From a virus (taxonomy: Duplodnaviria; Heunggongvirae; Uroviricota; Caudoviricetes), in the IMG/VR virus record IMGVR_UViG_3300012983_000032, positions 29,793 through 93,792 of that record: a stretch of DNA of 64,000 bases, one strand, 5' to 3'. Position numbers and translations under genes: made by a program. Shown one piece after another: positions 12,188 through 13,780 of this stretch (positions are counted from its first letter, which is position 1; every line of letters starts with the position of its first letter). The notes beneath the pieces are model-generated. The model made no database searches and had not been told where the DNA came from. It worked only from the letters and a program-made list of their open reading frames with translations.

Positions 12188-12230
12188 TGTACATTTTCCT
12201 CCTCGGAATTAATTATCTCCCCATACACTT

Positions 12231-12240
12231 TATATTAACA
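12231..12240 (-). promoter_or_regulatory. TTGTTAATATA promoter, 43 nt before ATG 12187. It lies between the tnpB stop and the next gene.
   Basis: motif. Confidence 0.5.
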
Positions 12241-12249
12241 AAAAAATTG

Positions 12250-13614
12250 TTAAAATGTGAGGACATTCAAGCCGTCACCAGCTAAATTTTCTGTTTCATC
12301 GGATGCTCCAACTATAGCCAGCGCTAAACTTGCTAAGTCTTCCACACCCTCCACAGACCTAAATTCCGACACTCCTTGCCGTACTTGTTTTATTGCATTT
12401 TCTTTTAGATTTATGGCTGCATTGACATCACGTATGTGTTCTGCTCCACATTCAGGGCAAATCCAACTTCTTACCGAAAGATTTTTCGTAATCGGATTCT
12501 TGAAACCACAACAGTGACAAATCTGACTTGATGCAAAGAACCTGTCGGCTTTGATTACTTGACAGTTATTTTCGTTTAAGGATGCTTTCCACAACAACTT
12601 GTTTACAAAAGTTCCCCAACTTGCATCACCGTAATTCTTTGCGTTTCTGCTAAACTTCATCATTCCTTTCAAATTCAAGTCCTCAATGCCGATGACTTGA
12701 TAAGTTGAAACGAGTCTTTTCGTTTCTTTTTCAATCCAATCATTTCTGCATTCTGTAATGTAATGTTCCATACGAGCAACTTTTACTCTTGCTTTTTCAC
12801 GATTGTTTGAGATGACTTGCTTACGCATAAGATTTCGTTGCAATTTCGTAAGTTTTTTCAAATTCCTTTGTTTTTGTGCTTTGTAGTCATAATCTTTCCC
12901 AGATAAACCATCCGAGTTTATGTAAAAATCTGCTGGACTAAAATCTAATCCGATAGCTTGGCTTTCACCACCGTCATAGGATTTCTGTTTATGGCAGTAT
13001 TCTCTTTCAAAAAGCAATACTGCATAATACTCGTTTGCAGGATTTTTTAGTATCGTAATTGATTTGAGTTCGACTTCCCCTTGAAGGAAGAAATCTAATT
13101 TACCCTTTTTGTTTCCACTGTGTCTGAATTTCACTAATCCTAATTTTGGGACTTTTATTTTTCTTTCGTTCCAGATAAGAGCAATATTCATACATTCACG
13201 ATAACTGAAATCATGAGACTTCTTTGACTTGAATTTCGGCTTTCCGACTTTACTTCCTGCCCTCGTACCTTTAATGGAGGTAAAGAAGTTTTTGTAAGCA
13301 GTTTCGGCAAACATTGTGGCAGAACATAGAGCTTGACTTGATACTTCTGCCAAATACGGAAATTTCACTTTCATTTCTTTTTCAGAAGAAAAATGAGCCG
13401 TTTTCCATAAAGCCTTATGTTCTTCTGGATTAGCGGGTTTGATTACATTTTCGTAGAATTGATTTCTTTCAAAAAGACGGTTGTTATAGATTTGACGGAC
13501 ACAACCAAAAGTTTTTTCGATTAAAACTTTCTGTTCTATAGATGGGTAAATTCGTAATTTTAATGCTCTATGTTGGGTTTCAATTGGAACAACTAACTTA
13601 TTAGACATAATCAA
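12250..13614 (-). CDS. tnpB: TnpB (OrfB) RNA-guided nuclease of an IS200/IS605-family element. No tnpA is adjacent.
   Basis: RuvC-I IGIEDLN, zinc finger CHCCG...CPECG, RuvC-III RDVNAAINL. Visibly higher GC than the flanking phage DNA. Confidence 0.9.
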   Translation of the reverse strand: MIMSNKLVVPIETQHRALKLRIYPSIEQKVLIEKTFGCVRQIYNNRLFERNQFYENVIKPANPEEHKALWKTAHFSSEKEMKVKFPYLAEVSSQALCSATMFAETAYKNFFTSIKGTRAGSKVGKPKFKSKKSHDFSYRECMNIALIWNERKIKVPKLGLVKFRHSGNKKGKLDFFLQGEVELKSITILKNPANEYYAVLLFEREYCHKQKSYDGGESQAIGLDFSPADFYINSDGLSGKDYDYKAQKQRNLKKLTKLQRNLMRKQVISNNREKARVKVARMEHYITECRNDWIEKETKRLVSTYQVIGIEDLNLKGMMKFSRNAKNYGDASWGTFVNKLLWKASLNENNCQVIKADRFFASSQICHCCGFKNPITKNLSVRSWICPECGAEHIRDVNAAINLKENAIKQVRQGVSEFRSVEGVEDLASLALAIVGASDETENLAGDGLNVLTF

Positions 13615-13780
13615 AATCTCACTTTGGTTGTGTTTAGAAGGCTGTGAATGTTGGTAGCATTTGCAGCTTTCATTTTTCTATCTAATTAGTTAGTAGATAT
13701 GAATTCTAAAATCTCGTTAATTTTTTCCGAAACGTCAAAATTTATTTTAAATGTGTAAAAGGATAATTCCGTTATATATT

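What the first reader, a model, noticed from the sequence alone, without database searches (positions are those of the whole stretch)
12188..13700. Standalone, GC-rich TnpB (IS200/IS605-type) inserted next to the flagellin gene and just upstream of a phage promoter
This is a complete TnpB with the RuvC-I, RuvC-II and RuvC-III residues and the zinc finger, and no tnpA nearby. Its GC content is clearly higher than the phage background, consistent with recent acquisition, possibly from the host. Its 3' end abuts promoter box 12231-12240. The omega/reRNA would be expected to overlap the 3' end of tnpB and extend to the right end at about 12190-12250. The element could act as an RNA-guided nuclease or as a hitchhiking mobile element, and it may have co-mobilised the adjacent flaB.
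Basis: partly seen in the sequence, partly recalled or inferred. Interest (0 to 1): 0.55.

Follow-up and report, generated by a model that had tools for sequence, protein, structure and literature searches.

The report
TnpB on a stranded IS1595-type transposon
A complete RNA-guided nuclease gene (tnpB) with its guide-RNA scaffold sits in a large Treponema phage, but it rides a cut-down DDE (IS1595-type) transposon from the host rather than an IS200/IS605 element, and it landed in a spot where sister phages carry a homing endonuclease or nothing.

Summary
The TnpB is real and looks intact, but the element type was misread.

- **The gene:** window 12250-13608/13614, minus strand. It has the RuvC residues D222/E309/D394 and a CxxC..CxxC zinc finger.
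- **The element:** the mobile unit is 12204-13771 (1,568 bp), bounded by 23-27-nt terminal inverted repeats.
- **The family:** TnpBs 81-91% identical are abundant in rumen Treponema. There the same repeats enclose an IS1595-family DDE transposase, a variable cargo gene and tnpB, flanked by 8-bp target duplications. The window copy is a short derivative without a transposase.
- **The guide RNA:** an omega-RNA-like structure overlaps the 3' end of tnpB and ends exactly at the right repeat. It is strongly supported by covariation.
- **The insertion:** sister phages 93-96% identical in the flanks lack the element. They keep the same flagellin, so flaB was not co-mobilised. Other sisters carry a freestanding homing endonuclease at that site.
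- **Signs of stranding:** the phage copy has degenerate repeats and no target duplication.
- **The "phage promoter box":** it lies inside the element's right end.
- **GC content:** bulk GC is not unusual; only third-codon-position GC is.
- **Inferred function:** an RNA-guided homing nuclease aimed at TTA-flanked empty sites in sister phages. This is untested.

It is a new variant of the known, little-studied class of DDE-associated TnpBs.

The parts
12204..13771 (-). Whole mobile element (1,568 bp): IRL, leader, tnpB, omega-like RNA, IRR. It is a non-autonomous derivative of an IS1595-family::tnpB insertion sequence.
   Evidence: Similarity to about 40 Treponema and metagenome copies starts at the IRL and stops exactly at ..ATAATTCCG. 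Sister phages align up to 13774 and again from 12203.
13749..13771 (-). Left terminal inverted repeat (IRL), CGGAATTATCCTTTTACACATTT. It differs at 5 of 23 positions from the family consensus CGGAATTATCCCCTCACGCACTT.
13721..13748 (-). Remnant of the region that lies between the IRL and the DDE transposase gene in full-length copies (AAAATAAATTTTGACGTTTCGGAAAAAA). The transposase and cargo genes that follow it elsewhere are deleted here.
   Evidence: Window 13771-13721 matches sequence about 1.8-2 kb upstream of tnpB in L007, L010, L012 and L013, just before the 312-aa IS1595 transposase.
13637..13671 (-). Hairpin in the tnpB leader. Other copies have different but equally good hairpins at this place.
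12250..13608 (-). tnpB ORF (452 aa from ATG; the ORF is open from TTG at 13614). RuvC D222/E309/D394 and zinc finger C364/C367/C384/C387.
12204..12381 (-). Omega-RNA-like scaffold of seven helices. It overlaps the last ~130 nt of tnpB and ends at the element's right end. The 3' arm of the terminal hairpin lies inside the IRR.
   Evidence: RNAalifold finds 38 pairs, 9 of them with compensatory changes. 98.1% of cells are paired, with 48 double-change cells against 15 +/- 2.8 in shuffles (0/500); slid controls give 39-49%. The window copy breaks only 2 of 38 pairs, and its own MFE fold recovers the helices.
12231..12245 (-). TTTTTTGTTAATATA box inside the loop of the terminal hairpin, part of a ~27-nt insert found in one subfamily of the IS. 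It faces outward toward the 279-aa gene.
12204..12230 (-). Right terminal inverted repeat (IRR), AAGTGTATGGGGAGATAATTAATTCCG. It is degenerate and carries a 4-nt AATT insertion seen in no other copy.
12184..12203 (-). Putative guide segment (right flank, AGGAGGAAAATGTACAGTGG). It is also the RBS and GTG start of the 279-aa phage gene.
   Evidence: Family conservation ends at 12204. The identical 20-mer, preceded by TTA or ATA, is present in sister phages that lack the element. Its role as a guide is inferred.
13772..13813 (-). Left flank: flagellin terminator hairpin (13786-13813) and the decayed native promoter box TTTTTTATTAATATATAA. Relative to a canonical insertion junction, 5 nt of the box and 15 nt of the junction (TATATATTAAGGAGG) are missing.
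13913..14773 (-). Phage FlaB-type flagellin gene (context, not part of the element).
11348..12187 (-). 279-aa phage gene immediately downstream (context). It now sits behind the element-borne box.

Best explanation
**What it is (well supported).** The feature is a 1,568-bp non-autonomous transposon. Two terminal inverted repeats of an IS1595-family (DDE) insertion sequence enclose only a catalytically intact tnpB and its omega-type guide-RNA scaffold. Full-length relatives in rumen Treponema have IRL, an IS1595 DDE transposase, a variable cargo gene, tnpB and IRR, and they make 8-bp target duplications. A short form of this element transposed from the Treponema gene pool into the flagellin/279-aa intergenic spacer of a ~425-kb Treponema phage. 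It entered after a TTA, at AGGAGGAA.

**What happened next (inferred from sequence).** The left junction lost 15 nt and both repeats decayed, so the copy is probably no longer mobile.

**How it probably works (inferred, untested).**
- TnpB binds the RNA transcribed through its own 3' end.
- The RNA's 3' tail is the flanking phage sequence AGGAGGAAAATGTACAGTGG.
- The complex cuts genomes that still have the uninterrupted site TTA-AGGAGGAAAATGTACAGTGG, meaning co-infecting sister phages.
- Recombinational repair from the tnpB+ genome copies the element in. This is homing, or interference between phages.
- It mirrors what the protein homing endonuclease found at the same site in other sisters is expected to do.
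- The element's right end carries a copy of the phage's TGTTAATATA promoter-like box. This probably keeps the downstream gene transcribed.
For: **Identity and ends**
- TnpB domains and catalytic residues are intact.
- Inverted repeats of 23-41 nt, 80-91% complementary, span the DDE transposase and tnpB in L007, L010, L012 and L013.
- The partner is an IS1595 transposase: Pfam E=8.6e-27, NCBIfam 185 bits against a cut-off of 75.
- 8-bp duplications flank ten independent insertions.
- Short copies without a transposase but with the same ends occur in L008, L066, L067, L077 and L085.

**Omega RNA**
- Covariation is strong, and the structure ends at the IRR.

**TAM-like motif**
- T at -10 in 19/24 and A at -9 in 21/24 flanks, just 5' of the duplication at the left end.
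- TA is present in 16/21 left flanks against 7/31 at the mirrored right position (Fisher p=1.9e-4). Background is 6.7%.

**Insertion polymorphism**
- L157-L162 are 93-96% identical in the flanks and have the empty site ..TATATTA|AGGAGGAAAATGTACAGTGG.
- The left junction equals the predicted canonical junction minus one 15-nt and one 5-nt deletion.

**Homing endonuclease at the same site**
- L147-L156 carry one there (phrog_655 E=1e-35; NUMOD3).

**Promoter box**
- 18 copies per 64 kb in the window, mostly upstream of an RBS and start codon, against 0.6 per 64 kb in Treponema loci outside IS ends.
Against: - No expression or cleavage data exist.
- The phage copy alone has a 4-nt AATT insertion between the terminal hairpin and the flank. 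If the protein measures the guide from the scaffold, the register shifts and the guide would start TCCG.., matching nothing.
- One pair of the terminal hairpin is broken.
- The TTA motif could simply be half of a palindromic target preference of the DDE transposase. The mirrored half-site is also above background (7/31, p=0.004).
- A DDE cut-and-paste element already leaves a break at the donor site, so the benefit of TnpB is less obvious than for IS605 (review PMC13565253).
- The copy is identical in the five samples where it was found, which says little about selection.
- Phage identity rests on replication-type PHROG hits and contig size. No capsid or terminase gene lies in this window.
Confidence: 0.6

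Rival explanations
1. Inert hitch-hiker. This is a recent, neutral or slightly harmful insertion of a host IS derivative into a phage intergenic spacer. It is now stranded. TnpB may be made but is mis-programmed or unused, and the element persists only because the insertion is tolerated and brings its own promoter for the next gene.
For: - Both repeats are degenerate and there is no target duplication.
- A unique 4-nt insertion lies next to the guide.
- The nearest sister phages lack the element.
- It was seen in only five samples, with identical or 99% identical protein.
Against: - The ORF is fully open.
- It has no more deviations at conserved columns than mobile chromosomal copies.
- 36 of 38 RNA pairs are kept, including compensatory changes shared with L064.
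- The putative guide matches sister genomes 20/20 next to a TTA.
Confidence: 0.3
2. A standalone IS200/IS605-type (IS1341-like) tnpB element with LE/RE hairpin ends, inserted 3' of a TTAC/TTAT-like site and mobilised in trans by a Y1 TnpA.
For: - TnpB is 36-40% identical to the IS605-type ISDra2 TnpB.
- The NCBIfam IS200_TnpB model is the top hit.
- There is no transposase in the window.
- A TTA-type motif lies near the left end.
Against: - The family has terminal inverted repeats and 8-bp target duplications.
- The gene between the repeats is an IS1595 DDE transposase. No Y1 gene was seen in about 40 loci.
- The IS200_TnpB score of 301 bits is below NCBI's cut-off of 425.
- The TTA motif is separated from the end by the 8-bp duplication.
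Confidence: 0.04
3. A TldR-like domesticated regulator. As in Enterobacter prophages, where a nuclease-dead TnpB relative next to a phage fliC represses the host flagellin gene, this TnpB would be functionally coupled to the adjacent phage flagellin.
For: tnpB lies directly downstream of a phage flagellin gene on the same strand. The TldR-fliC precedent is in PMC10705468 and PMC13418256.
Against: - The RuvC triad is intact and the protein is full length.
- Sister phages have the same flagellin without tnpB.
- The same spacer holds a homing endonuclease or an unrelated ORF in others, so the adjacency reflects an insertion hotspot.
- The only variable, guide-like sequence is the phage's own RBS region, and it has no second match in the window.
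Confidence: 0.03

Closest known systems
DDE-transposase-associated TnpBs (branches DDE-1 to DDE-6 of Altae-Tran et al. 2023, PMC10691335; the review PMC13565253 lists ISL2, IS630 and IS1031 partners)
   Same: - tnpB lies between inverted terminal repeats together with a DDE transposase.
- The 3' end of tnpB is well within 250 bp of the transposon end (46 nt here).
- Solo tnpB copies have the same ends, implying mobilisation in trans.
   Different: - The partner here is an IS1595-family transposase, which neither main text names. The supplementary tables could not be read.
- This family also shows 8-bp duplications, a directional TTA next to the duplication, cargo genes, and a copy stranded in a phage.
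ISDra2 / IS200-IS605 TnpB-omega RNA (including the solo-tnpB IS1341 group)
   Same: - Same protein fold family, with conserved D-E-D and zinc finger.
- The guide RNA scaffold overlaps the 3' end of the gene and ends at the element boundary.
- The predicted logic is the same: cut the empty site, which is a TAM plus the right flank.
   Different: - This family has terminal inverted repeats and target duplications, and no Y1 TnpA.
- The TAM-like motif is separated from the left end by the duplicated 8 bp, so the guide would begin with the duplicated target bases.
IS1595-family insertion sequences (ISfinder family; 8-bp duplications and passenger-carrying subgroups, recalled from my own knowledge)
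   Same: - Zinc-ribbon plus DDE_Tnp_IS1595 transposase of ~312 aa.
- Terminal inverted repeats.
- 8-bp AT-rich duplications.
- Passenger genes.
   Different: The passenger is an RNA-guided nuclease, and part of its RNA scaffold is built from the right inverted repeat. The window copy lacks the transposase.
TldR-fliC systems of Enterobacter prophages (PMC10705468, PMC13418256)
   Same: A TnpB-family gene next to a phage-borne flagellin gene.
   Different: Here the nuclease is intact, the element is a recent polymorphic insertion, and the guide-like sequence is phage DNA. It is not a member of that family.
Freestanding phage homing endonucleases and their role in competition between phages (for example the PhiPA3 intron endonuclease, PMC11620839)
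   Same: It occupies the very intergenic site that holds a homing endonuclease gene in sister phages. The predicted outcome is the same: cut naive sister genomes and spread by repair.
   Different: Recognition would be by RNA rather than protein, and arrival was by DDE transposition.

Membership tests
TnpB (OMEGA RNA-guided nuclease) | HTH / OrfB_IS605 (RuvC) / zinc-ribbon TNB domain architecture | tested here: met
   Pfam hits all lie above their cut-offs. NCBIfam guided_TnpB scores 245 bits against a cut-off of 100.
TnpB (OMEGA RNA-guided nuclease) | RuvC catalytic D-E-D and a CxxC..CxxC zinc finger | tested here: met
   D222/E309/D394 align to ISDra2 D191/E278/D361. The zinc finger is C364/C367/C384/C387.
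TnpB (OMEGA RNA-guided nuclease) | A structured omega RNA overlapping the 3' end of the gene and ending at the element boundary | tested here: met
   38 pairs, 9 of them compensatory, with 0/500 shuffles reaching the observed values. There is no Rfam match.
TnpB (OMEGA RNA-guided nuclease) | TAM- and guide-dependent DNA cleavage | not testable with these tools
   Only indirect evidence: a TTA motif 5' of the duplicated target.
IS200/IS605 family (including IS1341-type solo tnpB) | No terminal inverted repeats and no target duplication; asymmetric hairpin ends | tested here: not met
   The family has 23-41-nt inverted repeats and 8-bp duplications at ten sites.
IS200/IS605 family (including IS1341-type solo tnpB) | A Y1 HUH TnpA as the transposase of the family | tested here: not met
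   The gene between the ends is an IS1595 DDE transposase. The other ORFs are cargo, and none is Y1-like. No Pfam transposase hit lies within +/-10 kb of the window copy.
IS1595-family insertion sequence | Zn_ribbon_IS1595 + DDE_Tnp_IS1595 transposase | tested here: met
   Met in full-length relatives: L007, L010, L012, L013, L064 and L084. The gene is absent from the window copy, which is therefore non-autonomous.
IS1595-family insertion sequence | Terminal inverted repeats | tested here: met
   Met in the family. The window copy has both repeats, but the IRL has 5 of 23 mismatches to the consensus and the IRR has mismatches plus a 4-nt insertion.
IS1595-family insertion sequence | 8-bp target-site duplication | tested here: inconclusive
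   Present at ten Treponema or metagenome insertions. Absent at the window copy, where the junction equals the predicted duplication junction minus a 15-nt deletion.
DDE-associated TnpB (Altae-Tran 2023) | Inverted terminal repeats around DDE + tnpB, with the tnpB 3' end within 250 bp of the end and solo copies sharing the ends | tested here: met
   Which of the published branches this belongs to, if any, could not be checked.
TldR (nuclease-dead TnpB-derived repressor) | Loss of RuvC catalytic residues or C-terminal truncation | tested here: not met
   The triad is intact and the protein is full length.
TldR (nuclease-dead TnpB-derived repressor) | Guide complementary to the host flagellin promoter | not testable with these tools
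   The host genome is unknown. The guide-like flank is the phage's own RBS region and has no second match in the window.

The most novel reading that the evidence does not exclude
An OMEGA module (tnpB plus omega RNA) has become a stable partner of an IS1595-family DDE transposon in Treponema.
- The right inverted repeat doubles as the last hairpin of the guide RNA.
- The guide begins with the duplicated target bases.
- The TAM (TTA) coincides with one half-site of the transposase's target. The nuclease can therefore recognise every empty site, even though the transposon makes target duplications.

One such element, stranded in a ~425-kb phage, now acts as an RNA-guided homing endonuclease, or as a weapon between phages. 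It sits at the same intergenic site where sister phages keep a protein homing endonuclease. A subfamily of the element carries a phage promoter box, which suggests the IS shuttles between phage and host.
Probability: 0.3. Interest if true: 0.75.

Novelty: new variant of a known kind. Interest (0 to 1): 0.55.

Why it matters
How TnpB helps transposons that use DDE transposases and make target duplications is an open point in the field. The 2026 OMEGA review (PMC13565253) notes that such associations are rare and unexplained.

This family offers a natural test case:
- It is abundant: 6,812 proteins matched at E <= 0.001, and the best 120 listed are 85-100% identical.
- It is present in a cultured host, T. 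saccharophilum DSM 2985.
- It has clear ends and duplications, a covariation-supported RNA, and a candidate TAM.

The phage copy adds a concrete prediction: an RNA-guided nuclease can replace a protein homing endonuclease at the same phage locus.

It also carries a practical lesson for annotation. A "standalone TnpB" should not be filed under IS200/IS605 without looking at the ends.

Tried and rejected
**Searches that found nothing useful**
- Rfam scan of 11500-14500: only two sub-threshold chance hits, and no omega-RNA family.
- blastn of 11000-15200 against 50,697 phage records: no match.
- IMG/VR protein scan: only distant TnpBs at 28-44% identity.
- IMG/VR scan for the canonical right repeat: one spurious GC-rich hit.
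- A second copy of the ends, of tnpB or of a DDE gene in the window: none.
- Literature search for TnpB + IS1595: only co-mentions in annotation lists.

**Ideas tested and dropped**
- Bulk GC as evidence of foreign origin: not significant.
- A target duplication at the window copy: none found. This was later explained by a 15-nt deletion.
- TldR-type flagellin regulation: rejected.
- Co-mobilisation of flaB: rejected. However, the flagellin exists as two very different alleles, with a mosaic breakpoint at this spacer.
- A Y1 TnpA among the genes between the repeats: none found.
- A closing helix between GAATT at the 5' side of the RNA and the AATTC of the right end, seen in the single-sequence fold: it has no covariation support, so I do not claim it.

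**Left unresolved**
- The odd arrangements in L009 (a DDE gene between two outward-facing ends) and in L010, L083 and L089 (a second IRL right after the DDE stop codon) were noted but not resolved.
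Full report
**What is at the coordinates**

The minus strand carries one long ORF, 12250..13614 (454 aa from TTG; 452 aa from the ATG at 13608).
- Domains: HTH_OrfB_IS605, OrfB_IS605 and Cas12f1-like_TNB, all above Pfam's cut-offs.
- Fit to ISDra2 TnpB: E=5e-58 over residues 13-418. D222, E309 and D394 lie on the catalytic D191/E278/D361, and C364/C367/C384/C387 form the zinc finger.
- Integrity: against 119 close homologues it deviates at 5 of 345 columns that are at least 95% conserved. 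The median is 2 and the maximum 8, so nothing suggests decay of the protein.
- Neighbours: a FlaB-type flagellin gene upstream (13913-14773) and a 279-aa gene of unknown function downstream (11348-12187), both on the same strand.
- Source: the window is part of a 425,174-bp metagenomic contig. It has phage-type DNA polymerase, helicase and RNA ligase hits but no close relative among sequenced phages. I treat it as a probable very large Treponema phage. No capsid or terminase gene lies in this window, so that identification is not proven.

**Where the gene comes from**

- The protein search matched 6,812 proteins at E <= 0.001. The best 120 listed are 85-100% identical, and the only named ones come from Treponema.
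- One genome per species gives copies at 81-89% identity in rumen Treponema MAGs. Three copies are in the cultured T. saccharophilum DSM 2985.
- Bulk GC does not show it. The element is 35.0% GC against 31.8% for the window. That is z=1.4, with 9.4% of same-size windows as high, and both neighbouring phage genes are 36%.
- GC at third codon positions does show it: 31% against 20-24% for neighbours, matching the chromosomal copies.

**What kind of mobile element it is**

Aligning the window to the Treponema loci showed similarity well beyond the ORF.
- A 50-70-nt piece at 13771-13721 matches sequence 1.8-2 kb upstream of tnpB in L007, L010, L012 and L013.
- In those loci that piece precedes a 312-aa protein with a Zn_ribbon_IS1595 and a DDE_Tnp_IS1595 domain: Pfam E=8.6e-27, NCBIfam IS1595 family transposase 185 bits against a cut-off of 75.
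- The outermost 23-41 nt of that piece is the inverted complement of the sequence immediately after tnpB (CGGAATTATCCCCTCACGCACTT / AAGTGCGTGAGGGGATAATTCCG, 80-91% complementary).
- Similarity among some 35 copies stops exactly at ..ATAATTCCG.
- The whole unit is flanked by 8-bp direct repeats at ten independent sites:

| Locus | 8-bp duplication |
|---|---|
| L007 | ATTTATCA |
| L008 | ATCGCGCG |
| L067/L068 | ATGGCAAA |
| L012 | ATTTTTTT |
| L013 | TTCTTTTA |
| L064 | AAATTAGT |
| L070 | AAAGTAAT |
| L077 | TAGGAAAT |
| L084 | ATTTCTTT |
| L010 | AATAATTT |

- Six loci have the complete order IRL, DDE transposase, cargo gene on the opposite strand, tnpB, IRR.
- Others are short forms of 1.55-1.68 kb with only tnpB between the same ends (L008, L066, L067, L077, L085).
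- No Y1 transposase was found among the genes inside the units.

The window copy is one of the short forms.
- The IRL is at 13771-13749.
- A remnant of the transposase leader follows at 13748-13721.
- Then come the tnpB leader and gene.
- The IRR is at 12230-12204.

This is therefore not an IS200/IS605-type element. It belongs with the DDE-associated TnpBs. [quoted passage not shown] The partners named in the texts I could read are IS630, ISL2 and IS1031, not IS1595. The supplementary tables were not available.

**The guide RNA**

I aligned 27 distinct copies of the last ~180-200 nt.
- RNAalifold gives seven helices with 38 pairs. Nine pairs have compensatory double changes. Examples are G-C/C-G at 14:12 in helix 1, and G-C/A-U and A-U/G-C swaps in the GNRA-capped hairpin shared by the window and L064.
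- 98.1% of cells are paired. There are 48 double-change cells against 15 +/- 2.8 in shuffles (0 of 500 reach the observed value). Partners slid by 1-3 columns give 39-49% pairing.
- The structure starts about 130 nt inside the ORF (near 12381) and ends at the element boundary.
- The 3' arm of the last hairpin is the inner half of the right inverted repeat.
- The window copy breaks only 2 of 38 pairs, within the 0-2 range of the other copies. Its own minimum-energy fold recovers the same helices.
- No variable segment lies inside the element that could be a guide. As in IS605 elements, the guide must be the flank: here AGGAGGAAAATGTACAGTGG (12203-12184), which is also the RBS and start of the next gene.

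**A candidate TAM**

Flanks were oriented by tnpB.
- The left flank shows T at -10 in 19/24 and A at -9 in 21/24, immediately 5' of the duplicated 8 bp. The first duplicated base is A in 17/24.
- After removing spurious and duplicate sites, TA is present in 16/21 left flanks (TTA 11, ATA 5) against 7/31 at the mirrored right position. Fisher p=1.9e-4; the background TA frequency is 6.7%.
- The target is therefore roughly TTA|A-N6-T|TAA, with a strong bias toward the side that would serve as TAM for a guide made of the duplication plus the right flank.

This fits a homing logic carried over to a transposon that makes duplications.
- The empty site reads TAM + target and is cut.
- The occupied site is protected on the right by the repeat, which replaces the TAM.
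- It is protected on the left because only 8 nt match.

This is inference. The asymmetry could have other causes.

**History of the phage insertion**

| Relatives | Similarity to the window | Content of the flagellin/279-aa spacer |
|---|---|---|
| L157-L162 (nearest) | Left flank 95-96% identical up to 13774; right flank 93-94.5% from 12203; flagellin 99% identical in L157-L163 | Empty, ~170 nt, ending ..TTTTGTTAATATATTATATATTA\|AGGAGGAAAATGTACAGTGG |
| L147-L156 | Right flank 83-94% and left flank 84-91% identical | A 249-aa freestanding homing endonuclease (phrog_655 E=1e-35; NUMOD3 above cut-off) |
| L144 | More distant | An unrelated 168-aa ORF |
| L142, L143, L145, L146 | Flagellin only 57-67% identical, although the 279-aa protein of L145 is 95% identical | Empty |

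- The spacer is therefore a hotspot for selfish endonuclease genes and a mosaic breakpoint.
- The flagellin is ancestral to the lineage, so tnpB did not bring it.
- The window copy has no target duplication.
- Its right junction is exactly what a canonical insertion after TTA with duplication AGGAGGAA would give.
- Its left junction equals the predicted junction minus one 15-nt deletion (TATATATTAAGGAGG) and one 5-nt deletion in the native promoter box.
- Both repeats differ from the otherwise near-invariant consensus.
- The right one has a 4-nt AATT insertion seen in none of the other 26 aligned copies, nor in the closest relative L164 (91% aa).
- With no transposase in the window, the copy is most likely immobile.

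**The promoter box**

- TGTTAATATA occurs 18 times in the window, mostly 20-50 nt upstream of an RBS and start codon.
- It occurs 16.8 times per 64 kb in related phage loci, but only 0.6 per 64 kb in 215 kb of Treponema-type loci outside IS ends. Both of those hits are in L085, itself a distantly related phage contig.
- The copy at 12231-12240 is not next to the element. It lies in a ~27-nt insert in the loop of the terminal hairpin.
- That insert is shared by one subfamily of the IS, including the three T. saccharophilum chromosomal copies.
- In the window it replaces the native box, which lost its TTGTT, in front of the 279-aa gene.
- I infer an outward-reading promoter that limits polarity.
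- Why a host IS subfamily carries a motif otherwise typical of these phages is unexplained. Passage of the IS through phage genomes is one possibility.

**Most likely function, and rivals**

- *Structural identification* (a stranded, non-autonomous IS1595-type element carrying an intact tnpB/omega module of Treponema origin): about 0.85-0.9.
- *Functional model* (TnpB programmed by the right flank cuts TTA-flanked empty sites in co-infecting sister phages and spreads by repair, like the homing endonuclease at the same site): about 0.35-0.4. It is plausible because the 20-nt flank matches the sisters perfectly next to TTA or ATA. The 4-nt insertion next to the guide may have put it out of register.
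- *Main rival* (an inert hitch-hiker): about 0.3.
- *IS200/IS605 reading*: contradicted by the ends.
- *TldR-like flagellin regulator*: contradicted by the intact nuclease, the polymorphic recent insertion and the hotspot.

**Verdict**

This is a new variant of a known kind (DDE-associated TnpB). It has a clear, testable model for how a guide-RNA nuclease can coexist with a transposon that makes target duplications, and an unusual phage context. Interest is moderate (0.55).

Noticed in passing
window 13913-14773 (-); L142, L143, L145, L146 versus L147-L162: The phage-borne FlaB-type flagellin is conserved at this position across the lineage but exists as two very different alleles, 57-67% identical to each other. 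Yet the adjacent 279-aa protein can be 95% identical (L145). This points to an allele swap with a breakpoint in this spacer. No TldR-like partner was seen.
   Followed up: partly
L147-L156, about 5956-6705 (between the flagellin and the 279-aa gene): Sister phages carry a 249-aa freestanding homing endonuclease (phrog_655 E=1e-35; NUMOD3) exactly where the window has the tnpB element. L144 has an unrelated 168-aa ORF there, and L157-L162 have nothing. The spacer is an insertion hotspot for selfish genes.
   Followed up: yes
window about 13830-13912 (-): A conserved ~85-nt sequence lies just after the flagellin stop codon. It contains a tandem direct repeat, AGGTACTA(C/A)C(C/A)TAA(T/C)AGTT twice, and possible GGGTAG/CTACCC pairing. 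All relatives with the window-type flagellin keep it. The only Rfam hit is a chance-level one (psm_mec, E=0.81). Function unknown.
   Followed up: no
window-wide, for example 35097, 37339, 40981, 51893 (+); 44166, 28778, 23146, 10935, 9813, 1111 (-): TGTTAATATA, often preceded by a T-run, occurs 18 times in 64 kb, mostly 20-50 nt upstream of an RBS and start codon. It is equally dense in related phage loci and not enriched in Treponema chromosomal loci. It is probably a phage promoter motif. Which polymerase or sigma factor reads it is unknown.
   Followed up: partly
L007 2121-2840, L010 2370-2894, L009/L013 about 2090-2890, L012, L064, L070, L084: Full-length Treponema IS1595-tnpB elements carry a variable cargo ORF between the transposase and tnpB. 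Examples are a BrnT-toxin-like domain protein, an LPD13-domain protein, a 266-aa protein, and 160-170-aa proteins without hits. Most lie on the opposite strand; the 266-aa ORF in L009 and L013 is on the same strand as tnpB.
   Followed up: partly
window 13637-13671 (-); the same place in L067, L085, L010, L013: A 16-bp hairpin sits in the tnpB leader just upstream of the RBS. Other copies have different sequences there that also form good hairpins, which suggests a conserved regulatory structure.
   Followed up: no
L085 3829-5399: A second phage-like contig (49 kb) carries another short IRL-tnpB-IRR copy with canonical ends. One of its ORFs is 38% identical to window 9917-10558. The copy again lies just downstream of a TTGTTAATATA box. 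Its flanks are reverse complements of each other (AACTTCTT / AAGAAGTT) rather than a direct duplication.
   Followed up: partly
L009 970-2014; L010 1233-2268; L083 about 1425; L089 746-1387: Some loci have odd arrangements. In L009 an IS1595 transposase gene lies between an end facing left and an end facing right. In L010, L083 and L089 a second IRL copy follows directly after the transposase stop codon. These hint at nested or composite elements, or at a transposase gene lying outside the tnpB-carrying unit.
   Followed up: no
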